Position numbers and translations under genes: made by a program. 64,000 bases of DNA from positions 136,767 through 200,766 of the forward strand of contig MGDT01000004.1 in NCBI GenBank assembly GCA_001791045.1. The letters are read 5' to 3'. The notes under the pieces are model-generated. The model made no database searches. It was not told the origin of the DNA and was given only the letters and a program-made list of their open reading frames with translations. Shown here piece by piece: positions 31,443 through 39,215 of this stretch (position 1 is its first letter; each line of letters opens with the position of its first letter). The stretch is from Candidatus Uhrbacteria bacterium RIFCSPHIGHO2_01_FULL_63_20 (GTDB lineage Bacteria > Patescibacteriota > Patescibacteriia > UBA9934 > GWF2-40-263).

Positions 31443-32093
31443 TCAACCGAAATACTTTTCGCGATAGAACCGGATGAGATCCTCGACCGCCGGCAACACG
31501 CCCGGGTTCCCGATCCCCACCTTGGTCTTTTGCTGCACCGCTTCGAGCGTGTGCGCCCCTTCGAGCACCGCCTCCTCGATGTCATGGTCGGTGACCTTGG
31601 CCACCAGGTCCACGACGCGCGAGGCTTCGACCACGATGCGGTCGAATCGGCCCGCGCGGCGGTAGAAATCGTTGATCGCGTCGCGCAGCGCCTTGTCGCA
31701 CAGGACCGAGCAGTGGAACTTGCGCGCCGGCAGCCCGCCCAGCCGGTTCATGATGTCCATGGGTTTCAAGGCGCGCGCTTCCTCAAGCGTCATCCCGCCG
31801 TTCTCGGTCACCATCACCGATGCCACCGAGGTCGAGGCGATCGCGCTCCCGCACCCGAACGTCTTCCAGCGGAACTCCCGGATGCGTTCGCTCCCCGGAT
31901 CCACCTTCAGCCACACGCGCAGCTCGTCGCCGCACGCCGGAGAGCCCACCTTTCCGGTCGCGTCGTACTCGTCCGTGGCCACGTCGCGGTCCATGAAGTT
32001 CTTCGGATGGAAAAAATGCTCCTTCACGATGTCCGTGTAGAACCAGGACTGCTTGCGGTCGCGACTGCTCACGTCAGACATAATACTTTTCAT
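31443..32093 (-). CDS. nifU: NifU/IscU-type Fe-S scaffold with BFD-like [2Fe-2S] domain
   Basis: Motifs GSPACGDELRVWL, FGCGSAIASTS, HCSVL, plus a C-terminal BFD-like segment. Its start overlaps the end of nifS. Confidence 0.85.
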   Translation of the reverse strand: MKSIMSDVSSRDRKQSWFYTDIVKEHFFHPKNFMDRDVATDEYDATGKVGSPACGDELRVWLKVDPGSERIREFRWKTFGCGSAIASTSVASVMVTENGGMTLEEARALKPMDIMNRLGGLPARKFHCSVLCDKALRDAINDFYRRAGRFDRIVVEASRVVDLVAKVTDHDIEEAVLEGAHTLEAVQQKTKVGIGNPGVLPAVEDLIRFYREKYFG

Positions 32094-33276
32094 CGACCCT
32101 GACCGGGGAGATGGCGCGCAGCTTCTGCACGAGCGGCGGGAGCGTGTCGAGCACGTAATCCACGTCCGCCTCGGTGGTGGCGCGGCCCAGGCTGAATCGC
32201 AGCGACCCGTGGGCGACCTCGTAGGGAAGCCCCAGGGAGAGAATCACGTGGCTGGGCTCGAGCGCGGCGCTGGTACAAGCCGAGCCGGTGGAGGCCTCGA
32301 TCCCCGCCGCATCAAGGTACAGCAACAGCGCTTCCCCTTCCATGTCGAGGAACGACAGGTTGGCGTTGTTGGGGAGCCGAAGCGTGGCATGGCCGTTGAG
32401 CCGCGACTTCGGGACGCGTGCGAGCAGGCCGCCGATGAGCGTGTCGCGCAGCGCGATGAGCCGCGCGTTCTCGGCTTCCCGTATCTCGGAGGAGATCTCG
32501 AGCGCCGTGGCGAGACCGACCGCGCCTGCCACGTTCTCGGTGCCCGGACGGATGCCGCGCTCCTGCGTCCCGCCGAACTGGAGCGGCTGGAGCTTCACCC
32601 CGCGCTTCGCGTACAAGGCGCCGATCCCTTTCGGCCCATAAATCTTCCCGCCGTTGATCGTGAGCAGCTCCACGCGCAGCTTCTCCACGTCGAGTTCCAT
32701 GGCCCCGGCCCCCTGGCAGGCGTCGGTGTGCAGCACGGCCTTGGTATGCCCCGCCTCGCGGAGCTTCTTGAGCCGCTTGCCGATGTCCGCGACCGGTTGG
32801 ATGGTGCCGATCTCGTTGTTCGCGAGCATCACCGACACGAGCACGGTGTCCGGACGCACCGCGGCGATCGCGTCATCCGCGCTCACGATCCCGTCACGGC
32901 CAGGCGAGACGTACGTCGCGGTGAATCCTTCTTTCTTTTCCAGGTGACCGACGGACTCCAGGACGGCCGGATGCTCGAACGCCGATGTCACCAAGTGACA
33001 TCCGTTCGCTTTATTCGCCCGCGCATAGCCCAATACGGCCAGATTGTCCGATTCGGTCCCGCCCGAGGTGAACAGGATCTCGTCGGGTCGCGCATGGATG
33101 AGCGACGCGATGCGGGTTCGCGCGTCGTCGAGCGCGTCCTTCGCCTCCTTGCCGTCGCCGTGGAAGCTCGACGGGTTGCCCCCGGCCCCCTCGAGGAACG
33201 GCCGCATGGAACGAAGCACGCGGCTGTCGAGCGGCGCGGCGGCGGCGTGGTCCAGGTAGACGTGGCGGGTGGCCAT
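32074..33276 (-). CDS. nifS: cysteine desulfurase (NifS/IscS class)
   Basis: Motifs YLDHAAAAP, FTSGGTESDN, HTDACQGAG, the PLP-lysine region GGKIYGPKGIGALY, and the active-site loop STGSACTS. Confidence 0.9.
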   Translation of the reverse strand: MATRHVYLDHAAAAPLDSRVLRSMRPFLEGAGGNPSSFHGDGKEAKDALDDARTRIASLIHARPDEILFTSGGTESDNLAVLGYARANKANGCHLVTSAFEHPAVLESVGHLEKKEGFTATYVSPGRDGIVSADDAIAAVRPDTVLVSVMLANNEIGTIQPVADIGKRLKKLREAGHTKAVLHTDACQGAGAMELDVEKLRVELLTINGGKIYGPKGIGALYAKRGVKLQPLQFGGTQERGIRPGTENVAGAVGLATALEISSEIREAENARLIALRDTLIGGLLARVPKSRLNGHATLRLPNNANLSFLDMEGEALLLYLDAAGIEASTGSACTSAALEPSHVILSLGLPYEVAHGSLRFSLGRATTEADVDYVLDTLPPLVQKLRAISPVRVDEKYYV

Positions 33277-33327: not shown

Positions 33328-33876
33328 CTAGAGAGAAACGCTGAACGTGTCCCGCACGAATGTCCCGATGAAATACCCGATGGACGCGGCGGCCATGGAG
33401 ATAAACAGCATCTCGAGCCCCGAGCGCAGACGGTCGCGCTTGGTGAACTTCGCGCTCCACACGCCGAGAGCAAACAGGGCGATCACGGTCATCACGATGG
33501 ATGGGAGAAAGGCGGAATGGATCGGGAGGAACAGGTAGGGGATGAGCGGGACGAACCCGCCGACCAGGTAGAACACCCCCATCACCGACGCGGCTCGGCG
33601 CGGGGAGATTTCTCCTTGACGGCGTGGGCGGTGACCGTCCTTGTCGCTCGCGCGTTCGGCCGCTTCGTAGGATTTGGTGGAAAGATAGCTCCCGGCCGTC
33701 ATGGACGTGGCCTCCACCGCGATGAGCACGAGGCCCGAGAGGATCACCACGAACCGGCTGTCGGTCCCCACCGCGATGCCGGTGATGGTGCCGAGCGTGG
33801 ACACCAGGCTGTCTTCCAGCCCGAAGATGATCTCGCGCATCGAGGACACGATCTGGGTGCGAAGCGTCTTGAGCAT
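33328..33876 (-). CDS. VIT1/CCC1-family iron/manganese transporter
   Basis: REIIFGLEDSLVSTLGTITGIAVG, followed by TM helices and a G-rich C-terminal half. Start placed at MLKTLRT. Confidence 0.8.
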   Translation of the reverse strand: MLKTLRTQIVSSMREIIFGLEDSLVSTLGTITGIAVGTDSRFVVILSGLVLIAVEATSMTAGSYLSTKSYEAAERASDKDGHRPRRQGEISPRRAASVMGVFYLVGGFVPLIPYLFLPIHSAFLPSIVMTVIALFALGVWSAKFTKRDRLRSGLEMLFISMAAASIGYFIGTFVRDTFSVSL

Positions 33877-33922
33877 AGCGTCATCATTATACCCCCTGCT
33901 ATACTCCCAGAGAATCGTCCAT

Positions 33923-34456
33923 ATGAAACTTCCTGACCCCATCCGACCATTCGACCAGGCCACCCTCATCGTGGTCACCGACAACGTTCAGGCCAAGCTG
34001 TTCCGAGCCGATGGCCGGAACGTGGAGCTTGTAAGCGTCATGAGCCAAAAGCTGGAGCCCATGGAGCAAGAACGCATGGCGATCGCGACCGGCGCCGGCA
34101 TGCGAAGCGGCGACGAGCATAACCCGGGCGACCTCAAGGCCTGGACGCGCGAGCATCTCTACTCGGAGCTGTCGAAGGAGCTCATGCGCCGCCTGCAAAA
34201 CGGGGAGTTCGAACGACTCGCCTTCTGCGCCCCCGAGGAGCATGTGGAGGAGTTGAAGGAGTGCCTGCACGTGGAACTGCTGAAACGCGCCGATGCGTTC
34301 GTGCCCAAACTGCTCACGAACGACGACCTCCAGGATATCGTGGCGCACGTGCAGGAAGAGATGCCAAGCGTGCCGGCGGCGGCGATCGACCCGCATCACC
34401 CGCCGGTGCAACGCGGGAAGAACAAGAACAAAGGACGTACGCCCAAGATGGGTTGA
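33923..34456 (+). CDS. host-attachment/baeRF-like protein (weak call)
   Basis: The pattern ATLIVVTDNVQAKLFRADG...HLYSELSKELMRRLQNGEFERLAFCAPEEHVEELKECL resembles the 'host attachment protein' family layout. Assigned from memory only. Confidence 0.45.
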   Translation: MKLPDPIRPFDQATLIVVTDNVQAKLFRADGRNVELVSVMSQKLEPMEQERMAIATGAGMRSGDEHNPGDLKAWTREHLYSELSKELMRRLQNGEFERLAFCAPEEHVEELKECLHVELLKRADAFVPKLLTNDDLQDIVAHVQEEMPSVPAAAIDPHHPPVQRGKNKNKGRTPKMG

Positions 34457-34490: not shown

Positions 34491-34566
34491 GGCCACGTGG
34501 CGAAGTGGTTAACGCGGCGGTCTGCAAAACCGCTATCCATCGGTTCAAATCCGATCGTGGCCTCCA
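34491..34566 (+). tRNA. tRNA-Cys (anticodon GCA), CCA encoded
   Basis: GGCCACGTGGCGAAGTGGTTAACGCGGCGGTCTGCAAAACCGCTATCCATCGGTTCAAATCCGATCGTGGCCTCCA. Confidence 0.9.
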
Positions 34567-34567
34567 A

Positions 34568-34594
34568 AAACGCACCCTCACGGGCGCGTTTTTG
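34568..34594 (+). terminator. intrinsic terminator after tRNA-Cys
   Basis: AACGCACC-ctcac-GGGCGCGTT followed by TTTTGTTT. Confidence 0.7.
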
Positions 34595-34728
34595 TTTCGA
34601 TACAACTATCGAAATGTACGTCGAGGTAATGGTCCAAGAACGGCCGGACGAGATCGTTAAGTAAGGTATGGGGGATTAATCGGAAGCCGTCGATCATAGT
34701 AGTACCTTCAGTGTTACTGAATGGGTTC

Positions 34729-34765
34729 CAAACAAAATAGGAGTCGACCGTCAGTCGACTCCTAT
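34729..34765 (-). terminator. intrinsic terminator of the Cys4 mini-protein operon
   Basis: 12-bp stem ATAGGAGTCGAC/GTCGACTCCTAT, followed on the minus strand by TTTTGTTTGG. Confidence 0.75.
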
Positions 34766-34795
34766 TGCGCTAGCGGTCTCGCTGATGCAAGGATT

Positions 34796-35095
34796 TTATT
34801 CGTCGTTAGAGACTTCTACATCCTCCGGAATTGATGCCCAAATTGCATTGTACCAACGGAACGCGTTATCTACCCGTTCTGAGTGTAGTTTTTCTGAATC
34901 AAATGGTTCACGTAATGGCATTGGAGCCTTTGCACCACAGACAGGGCAATAATTTACCGGTTGGAAATTAACTCCATCTGTTACCCAATACATGATGCCA
35001 GACCGTTCTTGGACCTCAAAACAGAAATACATGACAAGATGGCGTAGTGATCTTTGTTTGTATGGCATCAGGCATCGATGCCTATTGCTGGTCAT
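34796..35095 (-). CDS. Cys4 (HxC...FC...CPxCGAKAP) mini-protein, paralog A
   Basis: 99 aa from the ATG at 35095, which follows GGAGAAGGAGG. Low-GC gene, paralogous to 35268-35723. Confidence 0.55.
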   Translation of the reverse strand: MTSNRHRCLMPYKQRSLRHLVMYFCFEVQERSGIMYWVTDGVNFQPVNYCPVCGAKAPMPLREPFDSEKLHSERVDNAFRWYNAIWASIPEDVEVSNDE

Positions 35096-35267
35096 TCTTT
35101 CCTCCTTCTCCAATTGCGACAAGAGCTGCGTTGTGAACGAACTGCGGGCGGAATTGCCCGTTCGAACCGATCGAATGCGTCGATCCGTTTGAACGAGGCC
35201 CAGTACCACAACAAAGTAGTGATACTGGGCAAGCACGAGTGAAAACCACTCGTGCCGATGTATATCG

Positions 35268-35723
35268 TTAGAGGCCGTCGAATAGTTTGTTTATCCGCTC
35301 TTTATTTTCAGAATCCTCAGGAAAAAACAACACATTAGCTACCCGCCAGTACAATTCACCCACTTGATTCTCCTTCAAGCCTTGAGCTGCCGTCGCAAGT
35401 AGACGTCTTGGGATTTTCTTTTTCTCGCGAAGACGAAGTCTCATCCTGCGTCTGGCCGCACGCATGTCGAGTTCTGGGAGCGGGATTGCTCTCGCTTCGA
35501 TATCCTTATTGAAATCCAGTCGGGATGTAGGCGCCTTTGCTCCGCACATCGGGCAATAGCTCACCCACAAAACGACCCAAGAATCCAATGCTTTCCATGC
35601 AACAAATTTTCCATCCTGTTCCTCATAACAGAATGTTTCCTCAAGGTAATCGATGGATTTGAAGCGACACGCGTGGAAGTGTGCATCAGGCACGTATAAC
35701 TCCTTGTTGCGGCGCGAAGCCAT
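35268..35723 (-). CDS. Cys4 (HxC...FC...CPxCGAKAP) mini-protein, paralog B, with Arg-rich insert
   Basis: 151 aa. It shares HACRF..FCYEE..YCPMCGAKAP and the tail ..FFPEDSE.. with paralog A. Confidence 0.6.
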   Translation of the reverse strand: MASRRNKELYVPDAHFHACRFKSIDYLEETFCYEEQDGKFVAWKALDSWVVLWVSYCPMCGAKAPTSRLDFNKDIEARAIPLPELDMRAARRRMRLRLREKKKIPRRLLATAAQGLKENQVGELYWRVANVLFFPEDSENKERINKLFDGL

Positions 35724-36281
35724 ATTGTGATGGAACGATCGCCTCCGGAGAGGCGCTGCTCGCCACGAGTTTCTCTCTCCTCATGGCTCCCGAAACTCGC
35801 GAACGTCGCGGGCTTTGGGAGCCGCGCAAGACGAGAACCGTCTTACGCAGATTTACGGGCGCTAGTCATGTTCGGCATTCGTCTCGTGCGTGGCGCTCTC
35901 GCTTAGACGCGCCGTCTCGGCTTGGGCGATCGTGCGGTCATCCTCATCGTCTGTCGGAGTCCGAACCTCCTGCGGAGCCGCATCCGTGCACTGCGGGGCA
36001 TAGGAGAATCGTGGCCCCAAAACCACCACGGCTTCCAAAACTCGGCATATCGCCTCCTGGTGCGCCGTAGCACGTGGCCTGGATGTCTCCAGACACCGGC
36101 GAATGCCGATGATTCAGAAAAGAGTTTCATTCCTCAATTCTTATGTACACCCTACCACTCAAAAGTGTCTTAGTCAATGGTTTGACTGGCTATCTTAGCC
36201 AAATTGCCTAATGCACTAGTCAGAATAGAAAATTTGTGCTAGTCTAGAATCCAGAGTCGGAAATGGCTCCGCTAATCCAAT

Positions 36282-37571
36282 ATGGTGGAAATTCGCCTAA
36301 AATCCATTGCAAATCGGCTTGGGAAAAGCGTTTCGGATATTGCCCGGGAAACCGGGCTCAATCGGAATACGGTCACGGGCCTGTTCCATGACAAGGTCGA
36401 TGGAATCAAGTTCGCGACCATCGACCTCCTGTGCGACACCTATGGGATCCGCCTTGAAGACTTAATCGTCCGCAAGGAGACGCGGGTGGGCGCGGCTCCT
36501 GGGTCGAGGATCATCCGCGAGTTGCGAATGGAACCGCCGTTTTTCTCATGGGCTCCGCTCAATGCTCTGCACAAGCCCCCGGCACATTTTTTCCAGGACG
36601 GGGTCGGCAAATCGTACACATTTTTCGCCCGTGGGCAGACTGAACGGTTTTTCGACCGCGCGGAACTGAATCGCTTCGCCTCGCGCACGCTCGAGCGGTA
36701 CGAGGGTGATGGGGCCATGGAGGTCCATGCGGCGTTCCTCCGAGCCCGCGACCAGCTCGCGGCCGCGGTCGCCGGCCTCGCGGCACAGCCGGTCGGCCGA
36801 TTCCTGAACGCCGATCTTCCGAAGACGGCGCAGCGACTGTCAGATTTGCGTTCCGACATGCTTTCGACGAGCCAATGGATCGACGCGTTCGACTGCGGCA
36901 TGCGCGACGAGCGAGTCGGGCAGGTGGAAAGAGCGCACGGATTCACGCGCGCCGAGACCTCGCTGCTTCTCGCTTCCGGTGAACAGACCCCGTCGGTGCT
37001 GCGACGACTCGCGGTATTGAGACTCGCGCAGGCGAATACAGGGGTGGAGCACAGGGATGCCAAGAAGTTCCTGTCCGCGTACCCGTTCGTGAGCGCGGAA
37101 GAACTTGCGGCGGACATCGAGGCGTATGCGAAACGACCCGAAACGCTTGCCTTCGAGGTCGAGACGCTTTCGCGCCTGCCGAAGGCACACGCGGATGCTG
37201 TCCGAAACCTCCTTCGCGTGAAAAATCTGCGCATAAACCCGCTGGAATTCTTCGCCCGCCTCGATGCTTGGCGCGACGAACGGGAGGAAGCTGACCGCGG
37301 GGCGCGCTTCCAACTCGATCGCCTGCTGCGCGTCATCGCCGAACGCTCCCACCTCGCCTACCCGCTTGCGCTTTATCTGCTCCCGCAGGAATCTGAGGGC
37401 GCGCTGAACGGCCTCGTGGGCGAACAGGCGCTTCAAACGCGACGCGACGAGGGGTTCCTTGTCGCGTTGGAGCACGGCGGATACAAGGCATATGAAGGCG
37501 CTTGGGCCGTTTCTGTGCAGGACGACCTCGTGAGCCGCAACATGAGCCAACTCGCCTATGCGAACCTTTAG
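36282..37571 (+). CDS. XRE-type HTH domain fused to a ~350-aa helical domain of unknown function
   Basis: The N-terminus LKSIANRLGKSVSDIARETGLNRNTVTGLFHDKVDGIKFATIDLLCDTYGIRLEDLI is a Cro/C1-type HTH. The remainder is Ala/Arg/Leu-rich and helical. It overlaps the next gene by 14 nt. Confidence 0.7.
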   Translation: MVEIRLKSIANRLGKSVSDIARETGLNRNTVTGLFHDKVDGIKFATIDLLCDTYGIRLEDLIVRKETRVGAAPGSRIIRELRMEPPFFSWAPLNALHKPPAHFFQDGVGKSYTFFARGQTERFFDRAELNRFASRTLERYEGDGAMEVHAAFLRARDQLAAAVAGLAAQPVGRFLNADLPKTAQRLSDLRSDMLSTSQWIDAFDCGMRDERVGQVERAHGFTRAETSLLLASGEQTPSVLRRLAVLRLAQANTGVEHRDAKKFLSAYPFVSAEELAADIEAYAKRPETLAFEVETLSRLPKAHADAVRNLLRVKNLRINPLEFFARLDAWRDEREEADRGARFQLDRLLRVIAERSHLAYPLALYLLPQESEGALNGLVGEQALQTRRDEGFLVALEHGGYKAYEGAWAVSVQDDLVSRNMSQLAYANL

Positions 37572-38565
37572 GAAAATCTTCGCGGTCGACAATGCGCTCA
37601 TCACGCTCGAGGTGTGGGAGCGCCATCAGACGGAAGGATTGAAAACGAAGTTCGGCAGCGGCACGCCCGTGTCGGTGTTCGACGTGAATGCCGGCGTCAC
37701 GGACGCGTACTACCAGGACGCGACGCTCCAAACGATTCGGGACGTGCTGACGGAAGAACAGAAGAATAACCCGAAGTTTTTCTTCGAGGCGATGGATCGT
37801 TACGAAGCCGAACTCGACGCGATCCAGAAGGTCATCGCGGAAGGAAAACCGCTTCCGGACGTCCAGACGCTCATGGCCTTCGCGGCGCGGTTCGAGCAGG
37901 CATGGATCGGCCTCGATGAATCCTATATGCCGGATTACGTCGCCATGGATGCGTCAGCCGAGCGCCGTTCGACCGTGGCGCGCGAGAAGGCGTTCGGGTT
38001 TTATGTCGGCGCGGACAGGCTCATCCGGCGCACGCTCGAAGCGCTCTTCCCAAGCCTTGGCGTGCATTCGAAATACCTGACGCTTGAAGAGGTGATGAGC
38101 GGGAAGCTGCCGGATATCTCCAAACTCGACGCGCGAGCGTTACATTTCATCTATTACAAGGATCAGGTGCTCATCGGGATATCGTTCGAGGACTTCTGCA
38201 AGACCGAAGGGATCCGCATCGAATCCGTCTTCGCGCCTCTGCGCGATCATCTGCGCGGGCAGGTCGCTTCGCGTGGGAGCGCGCAAGGACCGGTCCGCAT
38301 CATCGAGACGGACACGAACCGCGACCGGGTGAAGGGTGGCGACGTCCTCGTGGCGCGGGAGGCGGGACCACGCGACCTCGCATTGATCGAGCGCGCCTCG
38401 GCCTTGGTCCTTGATGAGGGTTCGTACTACGGAGCGGCCGCCATCGCCGCCCGCGCAGCAGGCAAGCCGTGCGTATTCGCGACCAGGATCGCGACCATGG
38501 TGCTACAGGAGAGCGAGAACGTCATCGTAGATGGGGATTCGGGGATGATTCGAGAAGCACGGTGA
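37558..38565 (+). CDS. protein with C-terminal PEP-utilizing-enzyme mobile (swivel) domain lacking the phospho-His
   Basis: The C-terminal GQVASRGSAQGPVRII...GDVLVAREAGPRDLALIERASALVLDEGSYYGAAAIAARAAGKPCVFATR...VIVDGDSGMI aligns by eye to the PEP-utilizer swivel domain. The canonical GG(M/R)TSHAA motif is GSYYGAAA here. Confidence 0.75.
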   Translation: MRTFRKIFAVDNALITLEVWERHQTEGLKTKFGSGTPVSVFDVNAGVTDAYYQDATLQTIRDVLTEEQKNNPKFFFEAMDRYEAELDAIQKVIAEGKPLPDVQTLMAFAARFEQAWIGLDESYMPDYVAMDASAERRSTVAREKAFGFYVGADRLIRRTLEALFPSLGVHSKYLTLEEVMSGKLPDISKLDARALHFIYYKDQVLIGISFEDFCKTEGIRIESVFAPLRDHLRGQVASRGSAQGPVRIIETDTNRDRVKGGDVLVAREAGPRDLALIERASALVLDEGSYYGAAAIAARAAGKPCVFATRIATMVLQESENVIVDGDSGMIREAR

Positions 38566-38581
38566 CCGCGGAGGACGTTTC

Positions 38582-38610
38582 TTGACAGGGATGAAAAGGG
38601 TGTATATCAT
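38582..38610 (+). promoter_or_regulatory. consensus promoter of brnTA
   Basis: TTGACA (38582-38587), 17-nt spacer, TATCAT (38605-38610). It lies 15 nt upstream of the brnT ATG. Confidence 0.55.
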
Positions 38611-38624
38611 ATCCATATACACTT

Positions 38625-38921
38625 ATGCTTCCTGACCTGGGGAACCTCACCGGCTTCGAATGGGATGCGGGGAATGAACGGAAAAGCGCCTCCAAGCACG
38701 GAGTGGCTCCCAGGGAATGCGAGGAAGCCTTCTTCAATGATCCGGTCCTTCTCCTCGACGATCACGGACATTCCTTGAAAGAACCGCGTTTCCACCTGTT
38801 GGGAAGGACGGACGCTCATCGAAAACTCTTCATCACGTTCACCGTCAGGAAAACACGCATCCGAGTCATCTCTGCCCGACCGATGAACCGAAAAGAACGG
38901 ATCATTTATGAAAAAACTTAA
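38625..38921 (+). CDS. brnT: BrnT-family (DUF497) ribonuclease toxin
   Basis: FEWDAGNERKSASKHGVAPRECEEAFFNDP...RVISARPMNRKERIIYE is the DUF497/BrnT signature. Confidence 0.85.
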   Translation: MLPDLGNLTGFEWDAGNERKSASKHGVAPRECEEAFFNDPVLLLDDHGHSLKEPRFHLLGRTDAHRKLFITFTVRKTRIRVISARPMNRKERIIYEKT

Positions 38922-39177
38922 AAAAATTCCGAATTTCACCTCCGAATCCGCCGAACGGAAGTTTTGGGAAACGCATGATTCTACCGAGTACCTAAACTGG
39001 TCCAAGGCCAAACGGGGCTCGTTTCCCAACCTCCAGCCATCGACACAAACCATCTCGCTTCGCCTGCCCGAATCCCTTCTGAATCGCGTGAAGGTCGCGG
39101 CACGTAAGCGTGATGTCCCGTATCAAAGCCTGATCAAGATCCTGGTCGACCGGGGGTTGGAGACGGTGGCGAAGTAA
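38908..39177 (+). CDS. brnA: BrnA antitoxin (CopG/RHH-like C-terminus)
   Basis: KIPNFTSESAERKFWETHDSTEY...ISLRLPESLLNRVKVAARKRDVPYQSLIKILV. It overlaps brnT by 14 nt. Confidence 0.8.
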   Translation: MKKLKKIPNFTSESAERKFWETHDSTEYLNWSKAKRGSFPNLQPSTQTISLRLPESLLNRVKVAARKRDVPYQSLIKILVDRGLETVAK

Positions 39178-39178
39178 A

Positions 39179-39209
39179 ACAAAACACCCGCTGATGGCGG
39201 GTGTTTTGC
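39179..39209. terminator. bidirectional intrinsic terminator
   Basis: AACACCCGC-tgatg-GCGGGTGTT with A and T runs on both sides. It lies between the convergent brnA and 3D-domain genes. Confidence 0.75.
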
Positions 39210-39215
39210 ATTGGA

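What the first reader, a model, noticed from the sequence alone, without database searches (positions are those of the whole stretch)
36282..38565. Overlapping gene pair: XRE-HTH/helical-domain protein plus a PEP-utilizer swivel-domain protein with the phospho-histidine replaced
The two genes overlap by 14 nt (ATG at 37558, TAG at 37569-37571), so they are probably translationally coupled. Gene 2 ends in an unmistakable PEP-utilizing-enzyme mobile domain (G.VASRGSAQGPVRII....GDVLVA....P.........ALVLDEG.....AAIAARAAGKPCV......VDGDSG). At the position of the catalytic His in the canonical GG(M/R)TSHAAI motif it reads GSYYGAAAI, so the His position is Ala. I recognise no ATP-grasp or PEP/pyruvate-binding domain in either protein. 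The ~240-aa N-terminal part of gene 2 and the ~350-aa part of gene 1 are helical and unassigned. A transcription-factor-like HTH is fused to gene 1. A non-phosphorylatable swivel domain paired with a DNA-binding partner, in an island next to a TA module, is not an arrangement I can place in any described system. It might be a sensor or regulator, or a defence-type module. That functional idea is purely hypothetical.
Basis: partly seen in the sequence, partly recalled or inferred. Interest (0 to 1): 0.65.

Follow-up and report, generated by a model that had tools for sequence, protein, structure and literature searches.

The report
Dead kinase pair turned self-regulating switch
Two overlapping genes in an ultra-small (Patescibacteria) bacterium are a catalytically dead, split descendant of a DNA-binding phosphate-transfer enzyme family; they keep the DNA-binding head and its operator, so they most likely act as a self-regulating sensor rather than an enzyme.

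Summary
Gene 1 (36282-37571) is an XRE HTH plus a ~360-aa helical domain. Gene 2 (37558-38565) overlaps it by 14 nt and ends in a PEP-utilizer swivel domain with Ala in place of the catalytic His.

All 21 orthologs of gene 2 lack the His and carry an invariant Tyr-Tyr instead. The two genes are always adjacent and overlapping.

The "unassigned" domains can now be placed. Both proteins derive from rifampin-phosphotransferase-like split dikinase modules (substrate domain plus swivel-His). These modules are hugely expanded in CPR/DPANN genomes, with up to 26 per genome served by a stand-alone ATP-grasp protein. Gene 1 is a swivel-less version of a conserved HTH-helical-swivel(His) protein. Gene 2 is a module that has lost 12 canonical conserved residues.

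This 98%-complete genome has no ATP-grasp domain and no other swivel domain.

An 18-bp palindrome (TGCCTA-N6-TAGTCA, 36205-36222) overlaps the gene 1 promoter. It is unique in the genome and conserved upstream of both orthologs and canonical relatives.

Best reading: an autoregulated pseudo-dikinase sensor/regulator pair on a variable islet beside tRNA-Cys. Its output is unknown. It is a new variant of a known kind, of moderate to high interest.

The parts
34491..34566 (+). tRNA-Cys (GCA). It marks the left edge of the variable islet that carries the pair. This is context, not part of the module.
   Evidence: ARAGORN. Synteny with the same-genus genome G001 breaks just after it.
34590..39210 (.). 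4.6-kb variable islet of lower GC (0.53-0.57 against about 0.63). It holds two Cys4 mini-protein genes, the gene 1/gene 2 pair and BrnT/BrnA. In G001 the same site holds about 0.8 kb with one 220-aa exported protein.
   Evidence: Composition profile. tblastx synteny: window 28.9-34.59 kb matches L106 5154-10955, and window 39.21-44.0 kb matches L106 11775-15737. ORFs and tRNA of G001.
36172..36187 (.). Secondary inverted repeat AGTCAA-tggt-TTGACT. It contains another TAGTCA half-site and lies inside the conserved upstream block ...CAAAAG...TCAATGGT... It may be a second binding site.
   Evidence: Read from the sequence. The block is conserved in the 8-locus alignment A3.
36205..36222 (.). Operator: 18-bp palindrome TGCCTA-ATGCAC-TAGTCA (6-N6-6), 60 bp upstream of the gene 1 ATG, overlapping the -35 element.
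   Evidence: It is the only match to TGMCTA-N6-TAGKCA (up to 1 mismatch) in the window (expected 0.02) and in the whole 863-kb genome. The same architecture is found 40-90 bp upstream of all 8 orthologous gene 1 loci and of canonical HTH-helical-swivel genes (exact in L021, L024, L028, L029, L031 and G047).
36217..36245 (+). Promoter-like elements: -35 TAGTCA (36217-36222), 17-nt spacer, TGc-extended -10 TAGTCT (36240-36245).
   Evidence: The columns ACTA (36215-36218) and GCTA (36238-36241) are invariant across 8 orthologous upstream regions. The strict sigma-70 scan did not call this promoter.
36282..37571 (+). Gene 1 (429 aa). It has an XRE/Cro-type HTH (aa 5-64; nt 36294-36473) and a helical domain (aa ~67-429) homologous to the pre-swivel part of canonical HTH-helical-swivel(His) proteins. 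It ends exactly at the linker where the relatives continue into the swivel domain.
   Evidence: Pfam. BLASTP of gene 1 aa 1-429 against G47_559 aa 1-455, E 6e-35. 29 shared invariant positions, and the junction alignment. 16 orthologs at 48-60% identity. AF2 pLDDT 72.
37558..38565 (+). Gene 2 (335 aa). It has an N-domain (aa 1-230; nt 37558-38247) homologous to the substrate-binding domain of short RPH-like modules, and a degenerate swivel domain (aa 231-335; nt 38248-38562).
   Evidence: Pfam and NCBIfam. AF2 pLDDT 90.7. The top Foldseek hits are rifampin phosphotransferase 5fbu/5hv2/5fbt, E about 1e-9, over about 270 columns. An exhaustive profile search finds hundreds of end-to-end homologous modules that keep the His.
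38410..38436 (+). Dead phospho-carrier loop L285-D-E-G-S-Y-Y-G-A293, which replaces the canonical T-D-E-G-G-I-T-C-H.
   Evidence: Column-by-column comparison of 21 clade members with 24 canonical modules. T becomes L (100%), IT becomes YY (100%), H becomes P/S/F/A and is never H, and the second G is lost. The motif T/SxxGGxxxH is defined in PMC12167813.
38625..39177 (+). BrnT toxin (38625-38921) and CopG/BrnA antitoxin (38908-39177), with their own strong promoter (TTGACA-17-TATCAT, 38582-38610). This is a neighbour only and is not conserved next to orthologous pairs.
   Evidence: Pfam. Promoter scan. Neighbourhoods of orthologs.

Best explanation
The pair is a catalytically dead, two-polypeptide descendant of the HTH-fused split dikinases of ultra-small prokaryotes.

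Shown:
- In the canonical system, a stand-alone ATP-grasp protein serves many 'substrate-binding domain + swivel-His' modules of the rifampin-phosphotransferase (RPH)/HpeH type.
- One module type carries an N-terminal XRE HTH and has a palindromic operator in its own promoter.
- Here, the HTH protein (gene 1) has lost its swivel domain.
- The downstream module (gene 2) has lost the phospho-carrier His, the rest of the T/SxxGGxxxH loop and an invariant N-domain Arg.
- The genome has no ATP-grasp domain at all.
- Both proteins remain strongly conserved and have acquired new invariant motifs.
- The operator is retained and is unique in the genome.

Inferred:
- Gene 1 binds the palindrome that overlaps its -35 element and represses the gene 1-gene 2 operon.
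- Translational coupling gives 1:1 amounts of the two proteins, which form a complex. In that complex, gene 2's dead swivel (YY loop) and/or N-domain occupies the place of gene 1's missing swivel.
- Binding of a small molecule in the retained RPH-like pockets changes HTH occupancy, with no phosphotransfer involved.

What the module controls beyond itself is not known.
For: 1. Homology and architecture. Gene 1 aligns end to end with HTH-helical-swivel(His) proteins, minus their swivel. Gene 2 aligns end to end with ~340-aa canonical modules and with modules fused behind ATP-grasp domains. Its closest solved fold is RPH.
2. Catalytic death. 12 residues that are 92-100% conserved in 24 canonical modules are replaced in 21 of 21 clade members, including H293, T285, G289 and R10. 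In HpeH, mutating this His abolishes kinase activity (PMC12167813).
3. No partner. PF01326 gives 0 hits and PF00391 gives 1 hit (gene 2 itself) in a 98.4%-complete genome. G459 likewise has only the pair. In 61 relatives the two domains otherwise co-occur (24 genomes each, essentially the same ones).
4. Selection, not decay. There are 21 and 16 intact orthologs at 41-62% identity, with clade-specific invariant motifs (YY, REKAFGFYxGxDR, H23-Q24, C214).
5. Obligate pairing. The genes are adjacent with a 14-17 nt overlap in every locus examined. No third gene is conserved.
6. Autoregulation. The HTH recognition helix is conserved with canonical relatives. The same 6-N6-6 palindrome lies upstream of both groups. 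It is unique in the window and in the genome.
Against: - No direct evidence shows that the two proteins interact.
- No ligand is known.
- The profile-profile comparison of the two families found nothing.
- A module whose only detectable DNA target is its own promoter has no obvious output, which equally fits a selfish or TA-like element.
- The promoter elements did not pass the strict sigma-70 scan.
- The gene 1 model has a low-confidence segment at aa 64-124.
Confidence: 0.55

Rival explanations
1. A self-contained selfish or defence-type module, like a toxin-antitoxin or abortive-infection system. The XRE-HTH protein would be an autorepressing antitoxin or sensor, and gene 2 an effector released on some trigger.
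For: - It is an autoregulated two-gene operon with overlapping genes whose only operator in the genome is its own.
- Its distribution is extremely patchy: 1 of 401 sampled genomes in the phylum, 4 species representatives overall, and absent from the same-genus genome.
- It sits on a low-GC variable islet next to a tRNA and BrnTA.
- Integrases or a zeta toxin lie within a few kb in two other loci.
Against: - PADLOC gave no hit, and PHROGs gave only a generic HTH and a kinase swivel match.
- Gene 2 has no recognisable toxic domain, and its relatives are kinase modules.
- Both proteins are large (429 and 335 aa) for a TA pair.
- The neighbourhoods hold no recurrent defence genes.
- The closest ortholog (60% identity) sits beside the same housekeeping genes, baeRF12-VIT1-NifS-NifU. 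This suggests vertical persistence in that lineage.
- Canonical relatives have the same autoregulatory operator without being TA systems.
Confidence: 0.15
2. The pair is still an enzyme that uses altered chemistry. For example, the invariant Tyr-Tyr loop could act as an alternative phospho-acceptor or catalytic element, charged by an unrecognised kinase or by a host-supplied donor.
For: - Y290-Y291 is invariant and sits exactly on the carrier loop.
- R142 of gene 2 and the NPLxFFxxLxxWRxER motif of gene 1 (R331, R334) are retained from the canonical modules.
- Two of the four genomes with the pair (G460, G461) do encode ATP-grasp subunits. In G460 the pair lies about 13-16 kb from an ATP-grasp + 7-module array on the same contig.
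Against: - Two genomes, including this one, have no ATP-grasp at all.
- The glycine-rich loop that positions the carrier residue is destroyed (GG becomes Gx, T becomes L), and the invariant N-domain Arg10 is lost.
- The swivel scores only about half of canonical against swivel profiles.
- I know of no precedent for phosphotyrosine carriers in this fold.
Confidence: 0.1
3. An ordinary split PEP synthase or PPDK, or decaying remnants of one (pseudogenes).
For: - NCBIfam PEP-synthase models match the swivel region.
- Split dikinases are common in close relatives.
Against: - No ATP-grasp and no PEP/pyruvate domain is present in either protein or anywhere in the genome.
- The His is absent in 21 of 21 orthologs.
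- Both reading frames are intact and conserved across more than 16 divergent genomes, with clade-specific invariant motifs. This is incompatible with decay.
Confidence: 0.03

Closest known systems
Two-component small-molecule dikinases HpeHI, CreHI and PpsAB (phenylphosphate synthase). HpeH/CreH/PpsA is the substrate-binding + swivel subunit, and HpeI/CreI/PpsB is the ATP-grasp subunit (PMC12167813).
   Same: Gene 2, and gene 1 without its HTH, have the HpeH-type layout: a helical RPH-like substrate domain followed by a PEP-utilizer swivel (or, in gene 1, the place where the swivel should be). Their His-bearing paralogs in related genomes sit next to stand-alone ~315-aa ATP-grasp genes.
   Different: The carrier His and the whole T/SxxGGxxxH loop are lost. 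The genome has no ATP-grasp partner. One subunit carries an XRE HTH and lacks a swivel altogether. The modules are much shorter (about 230 and 360 aa of substrate domain, against about 470 aa in HpeH).
Rifampin phosphotransferase RPH-Lm (PDB 5FBS/5FBT/5FBU, 5HV1; PMC4844700).
   Same: It is the best structural match to gene 2 (Foldseek E about 1e-9, about 270 aligned columns). The match covers part of the RIF-binding domain as well as the swivel.
   Different: RPH is one 867-aa chain with an ATP-grasp domain and a catalytic His. Sequence identity is 17-19%. Nothing suggests that rifampin is a ligand here.
Canonical HTH_26-helical-swivel(His) proteins of CPR bacteria and DPANN archaea (555-585 aa). 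I found them in no paper. Earlier notes of this scan describe them, and I re-examined them here.
   Same: The HTH is the same (40-74% identical), with the same recognition helix GLNRNT. The helical domain is homologous (22-28% identity, 29 shared invariant positions). The same 6-N6-6 palindromic operator lies 40-90 bp upstream.
   Different: Canonical members carry their own highly conserved swivel (NEGGITCHAAIVSR) and occur in genomes with ATP-grasp subunits and module arrays. Gene 1 stops at the linker and is instead coupled to a separate dead module.
The extra C-terminal domain of Bacillus/Staphylococcus pyruvate kinase (PDB 2E28, 3T05), a PEP-utilizer-fold domain attached to an enzyme that does not use it for the dikinase reaction.
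   Same: It shows that the swivel fold can occur outside the dikinase reaction cycle. It appears among the sequence and Foldseek hits to gene 2.
   Different: It is part of an active metabolic enzyme. It has no HTH partner and is unrelated in its N-terminal part. The statement about its role rests on my own knowledge and was not tested here.

Membership tests
PEP synthase / PPDK (PpsA, PpdK) | N-terminal PPDK_N ATP-grasp domain (PF01326) | tested here: not met
   Absent from both proteins and from the whole 98.4%-complete genome. The same search found the domain in 13 of 14 control genomes.
PEP synthase / PPDK (PpsA, PpdK) | Swivel domain with a catalytic phospho-His (GGxTSH) | tested here: not met
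   The fold is present (PF00391, E 1.5e-16), but the His is Ala293. The His is absent in 21 of 21 orthologs.
PEP synthase / PPDK (PpsA, PpdK) | C-terminal PEP/pyruvate-binding TIM-barrel domain | tested here: not met
   No Pfam or NCBIfam match outside the swivel and the HTH. The NCBIfam PpsA matches cover only model positions ~354-462.
Two-component RPH-like small-molecule dikinase, substrate + swivel subunit (HpeH/CreH/PpsA type) | Substrate-binding domain homologous to the RIF-binding domain of RPH, followed by a swivel domain | tested here: met
   For gene 2: Foldseek top hits are RPH over about 270 columns, and it has end-to-end sequence homology to His-bearing modules, some fused behind ATP-grasp domains. 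For gene 1: homologous to the pre-swivel part of canonical modules, but Foldseek on its model returned only HTH hits.
Two-component RPH-like small-molecule dikinase, substrate + swivel subunit (HpeH/CreH/PpsA type) | Conserved T/SxxGGxxxH carrier motif (His essential for activity; PMC12167813) | tested here: not met
   The canonical T-D-E-G-G-I-T-C-H reads L-D-E-G-S-Y-Y-G-A. This change is conserved across the clade. Gene 1 has no swivel at all.
Two-component RPH-like small-molecule dikinase, substrate + swivel subunit (HpeH/CreH/PpsA type) | A cognate ATP-grasp subunit encoded in the genome | tested here: not met
   0 PF01326 matches in G000 and in G459. One or more are present in G460 and G461, which also carry the pair.
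CPR/DPANN HTH-helical-swivel(His) autoregulator family | N-terminal HTH_26 plus a homologous helical domain | tested here: met
   BLASTP against G47_559 gives E 6e-35 over aa 1-429. There are 11 further relatives at 22-28% identity and 29 shared invariant positions.
CPR/DPANN HTH-helical-swivel(His) autoregulator family | C-terminal swivel domain with His on the same polypeptide | tested here: not met
   Gene 1 and all 16 of its orthologs end at the linker before the swivel.
CPR/DPANN HTH-helical-swivel(His) autoregulator family | Palindromic operator TGmCTA-N6-TAGkCA in its own promoter region | tested here: met
   An exact match lies at 36205-36222 and is unique in the genome. It is present upstream of all 8 orthologous loci and of canonical genes. 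Actual binding was not tested.
Type II toxin-antitoxin or known anti-phage defence system | A match to a known toxin, antitoxin or defence-protein family, or a recurrent defence-island context | tested here: not met
   PADLOC gave no significant hit. PHROGs gave only generic regulator and kinase hits. The neighbourhoods vary and are mostly housekeeping. A toxicity phenotype cannot be tested with these tools.

The most novel reading that the evidence does not exclude
The pair is a phosphorylation-independent 'pseudo-dikinase' transcription switch. Gene 2's dead swivel domain presents an invariant Tyr-Tyr loop where the phospho-His used to be. In this reading it docks permanently or ligand-dependently into gene 1's vacant swivel site, and so gates an HTH that once read out a swivelling phospho-His. 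This would be a signalling device built from two retired enzyme subunits. It would have become autonomous enough to survive, and to move, in genomes that have lost the whole ATP-grasp/swivel network. It would also offer a natural 'locked-state' mutant for working out how the canonical HTH-dikinase fusions couple swivel position to DNA binding.
Probability: 0.3. Interest if true: 0.72.

Novelty: new variant of a known kind. Interest (0 to 1): 0.58.

Why it matters
Split RPH-like dikinases are known as catabolic and antibiotic-modifying enzymes. This locus suggests that in ultra-small symbiotic bacteria the same parts have been turned into a DNA-binding regulator and then stripped of catalysis altogether, while staying under strong selection.

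- It is a clean natural example of pseudoenzyme evolution in the swivel-domain superfamily, with a defined operator. It can be tested directly by gel shift, reporter assay, pull-down and ligand screen in E. coli.
- It warns against annotating such genes as "PEP synthase / PEP-utilizing enzyme" in metabolic reconstructions of CPR/DPANN genomes.
- It points to a much larger system that I could not find described in the papers searched: one ATP-grasp plus up to 26 modules per <1.5-Mb genome.

Tried and rejected
- Profile-profile comparison of the gene 1 and gene 2 families (hhalign) found no relationship. The idea that the two helical domains are paralogous copies of each other has no support.
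- Foldseek on the gene 1 model returned only the HTH. The RPH-like nature of its helical domain therefore rests on sequence homology to canonical modules.
- PADLOC and PHROGs gave nothing specific.
- I searched for a conserved third gene next to the pair and found none. A REC-like orphan protein recurs in only 2 of 8 loci.
- I tested whether gene 2 captured gene 1's lost swivel, prompted by the shared GQVASRG start. This was rejected: all 21 dead swivels score higher against the gene-2-type module swivel profile than against the HTH-family swivel profile (72 against 58 bits on average).
- I looked for operators at other promoters in canonical arrays (ATP-grasp and other modules) and found none. 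Operators lie only in front of the HTH genes.
- Literature searches found no description of the HTH fusions, the arrays or the His-less pair.
Full report
**Observation.** The two ORFs are exactly as described: gene 1 at 36282-37571 (429 aa) and gene 2 at 37558-38565 (335 aa), with a 14-nt overlap. Pfam finds only an XRE-type HTH_26 in gene 1 (aa 5-64, E 3e-11) and only the PEP-utilizer mobile domain in gene 2 (aa 259-329, E 1.5e-16, 60 bits against a cut-off of 23). NCBIfam models of PEP synthase, PPDK, RPH, PigC and the like match gene 2 only over their swivel segments. An ungapped alignment to solved PEP synthases puts Ala293 at the catalytic His: DEGGRTSHAAI against DEGSYYGAAAI.

**Orthologs.** A word-indexed search of 5.8 billion proteins returned 21 full-length orthologs of gene 2 (41-62% identity) and 16 of gene 1 (48-60%). 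Those that carry names come from Patescibacteria/Parcubacteria MAGs. None of the 21 has a His at the carrier position (P/S/F/A/T/G/I instead), and Tyr290-Tyr291 just before it is invariant. In every contig examined the two genes are adjacent, co-oriented and overlap by 14-17 nt. The flanking genes differ from contig to contig, and no third gene is conserved.

**What the 'unassigned' domains are.**
- The AF2 model of gene 2 is confident (pLDDT 90.7). Its best PDB matches are the rifampin phosphotransferase structures (E about 1e-9) over about 270 columns, well beyond the ~100-aa swivel, followed by PPDK, pyruvate kinase and enzyme I.
- A relative in the same order (G047) carries six tandem genes (341-622 aa). 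Each is a helical domain plus a swivel with an intact GG(I/V)T(C/S)H.
- Gene 2 aligns with the 341-aa member (E 1e-31). Gene 1 aligns over its whole length with residues 1-455 of the 559-aa member, which is HTH_26 + helical domain + swivel(His) (E 6e-35).
- A scan of all species-representative genomes found eleven more such HTH-helical-swivel proteins (555-585 aa, swivel NEGGITCHAAIVSR) in Patescibacteria and one DPANN archaeon.
- Gene 1 and its orthologs stop precisely at the linker where these relatives continue into the swivel.
- An exhaustive profile search with the gene 2 family found 427 proteins at E<1e-30. All 24 end-to-end homologous modules I inspected outside the small clade carry TDEGGITCHAAI, and some sit directly behind an ATP-grasp domain in one chain.
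- So both genes belong to the RPH/HpeH-type 'substrate domain + swivel' module family. The characterised members of that family (HpeHI, CreHI, PpsAB) are two-component dikinases in which a separate ATP-grasp subunit charges the swivel His. Mutating that His abolishes kinase activity (PMC12167813; RPH domains in PMC4844700).

**Genomic system around the family.**
- Among 61 relatives, PPDK_N and PEP-utilizer domains occur in 24 genomes each, and these are essentially the same genomes. A typical layout is a ~315-aa stand-alone ATP-grasp gene flanked by several modules.
- Some genomes of 0.7-1.5 Mb hold 10-26 swivel domains.
- The window's genome (863 kb, 98.4% complete) is the exception. It has no PPDK_N anywhere, and gene 2 is its only swivel domain.
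- Of the three other species representatives with the true pair, G459 is the same (pair only). G460 and G461 also have ATP-grasp genes and arrays.
- The pair is rare: 1 of 401 sampled genomes of the phylum, and absent from the same-genus genome.

**Dead, but selected.**
- I compared 21 clade members with 24 canonical modules column by column. Twelve residues that are 92-100% conserved in canonical modules are replaced throughout the clade. They are the N-domain Arg (YTRE becomes YTVH), the MT pair, the whole carrier loop (T285L, E287, G289, I290Y, T291Y, C292, H293), E300, G308 and E323.
- The clade has also acquired its own invariant motifs: YY, REKAFGFYxGxDR, H23-Q24, F112, D120 and C214.
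- The dead swivels score about half as well as canonical ones against swivel profiles. All 21 are closer to gene-2-type module swivels than to HTH-family swivels. Gene 2 therefore descends as a whole from a canonical module and did not capture gene 1's lost swivel.
- Gene 1 keeps 29 positions that are invariant in the canonical HTH proteins. These include the recognition helix (R28-N29-T30) and an NPLxFFxxLxxWRxER motif in the helical domain.
- Taken together, this is neofunctionalisation rather than decay.

**Regulation.**
- An alignment of eight orthologous upstream regions shows conserved non-coding blocks.
- Upstream of canonical HTH genes there is a clear palindrome, for example TTGCCTAGTAAACTAGGCAA and TTGACTAGTTTACTAGTCAA.
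- The same 6-N6-6 architecture, TGCCTA-ATGCAC-TAGTCA, lies at 36205-36222. That is 60 bp upstream of the gene 1 ATG and overlaps a conserved -35/-10 pair (TAGTCA-17-TGcTAGTCT).
- The pattern TGMCTA-N6-TAGKCA occurs once in the window (expected 0.02) and once in the whole genome.
- In 16 related loci it lies 40-90 bp upstream of the HTH gene, often as two sites about 60-70 bp apart. It is not found at the ATP-grasp or other module promoters examined.
- Gene 1 is therefore very probably an autorepressor, and the pair's only evident DNA target is its own operon. DNA binding itself is inferred, not shown.

**Context.** The pair lies on a 4.6-kb lower-GC islet (34.59-39.21 kb) just after tRNA-Cys, together with two Cys4 mini-protein genes and BrnT/BrnA. 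Both flanks are syntenic with the same-genus genome, where the site holds about 0.8 kb with one exported protein and an inverted tRNA-Cys. The closest ortholog (60% identity) nevertheless sits beside the same baeRF12-VIT1-NifS-NifU genes. So the site is variable, but the pair has some lineage persistence.

**Interpretation.**
- Most likely (about 0.55): an autoregulated pseudo-dikinase sensor/regulator. Gene 1 binds the operator. Translationally coupled gene 2 acts as its partner and substitutes for the lost cis swivel. Ligand binding, not phosphotransfer, modulates repression.
- Rivals: a TA-like or defence-type selfish module (0.15), residual non-His chemistry through the YY loop (0.1), and an ordinary or decaying split PEP synthase (0.03, effectively refuted).
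- The module's output beyond itself is unknown.

**Novelty.** The papers I could search describe RPH and the two-component phenolic dikinases, and they mention rph-like or 'PEP synthase' hits in CPR/DPANN genomes. None describes the HTH fusions, the module arrays or this His-less pair. Earlier notes of this scan independently describe the canonical HTH-swivel(His) family, its operator and the arrays. I re-derived those points here. None of those notes covers the His-less split pair. I file it as a new variant of a known kind.

Noticed in passing
G460, G461, G462, G464, G467, G472; L099:4105-15956; L011:485-9331: There is a massive paralog expansion of 'helical substrate domain + swivel-His' modules in ultra-small genomes, with up to 26 swivel domains in a 0.7-Mb genome. 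Usually one or a few stand-alone ~315-aa ATP-grasp genes accompany them. The arrays run to 6-10 consecutive genes. I found this in no paper searched.
   Followed up: partly
P0047 (1832 aa), P0049 (2648 aa), P0050, P0048; G461:C38 open frame of 3376 aa: Some organisms encode giant multi-module chains (ATP-grasp followed by 3-8 module+swivel units) in one open frame.
   Followed up: no
P0049: This protein reads W where canonical modules have invariant G (DEGWITCHAAI, GWLLSHAAI, and many other W residues). This looks like a UGA=Gly (code 25) organism whose genes were translated with UGA=Trp.
   Followed up: no
window 33701-34456, 33328-33984, 31443-33276; L101:4194-7520: The closest ortholog of the pair sits next to the same baeRF_family12, VIT1, NifS, NifU and ferredoxin genes as in the window, but in the opposite relative orientation. 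Other orthologous loci have metal-related neighbours: Nramp in L102, HMA/P-type ATPase in L103, and ArsR/ArsP/CsoR-like plus thioredoxins in L005. This may be coincidence in small genomes.
   Followed up: partly
window 34491-34566 vs L106:10858-10933: tRNA-Cys(GCA) is in opposite orientation in the two same-genus genomes, at the border of the variable islet. This suggests a local inversion or recombination hot spot.
   Followed up: partly
window 34796-35236 and 35268-35723 (minus strand): These are two paralogous Cys4 mini-proteins sharing the motif YCPxCGAKAP (39% identity over 44 aa). They have no Pfam or PHROG match and are not conserved next to orthologous pairs.
   Followed up: partly
L011:485-2353 (G47_622, N-terminus): A second paralog in the G047 array starts with a winged-helix-like segment (LTEIAKILNKDAGNITRELTNLVNENLV...). 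So more than one type of DNA-binding head is fused to these modules. Pfam did not call it.
   Followed up: no
L005:5767-6510 and L101:159-749: A REC-like orphan protein (weak Response_reg match, 33% identical between the two) is encoded upstream of the pair in 2 of 8 orthologous loci.
   Followed up: no
bioRxiv 10.64898/2026.05.13.725050: Near-universal KEGG 'PEP synthase' (K01007) hits are reported in DPANN genomes that lack glycolysis. Some of these may really be RPH-like modules or ATP-grasp subunits of the system seen here, since a DPANN archaeon (L023) carries HTH-helical-swivel, a module and an ATP-grasp gene together.
   Followed up: no
window 38582-38610: A strong sigma-70-like promoter (TTGACA-17-TATCAT, 11 of 12 matches) lies just upstream of brnT. 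The TA module is therefore probably transcribed independently of the pair.
   Followed up: no
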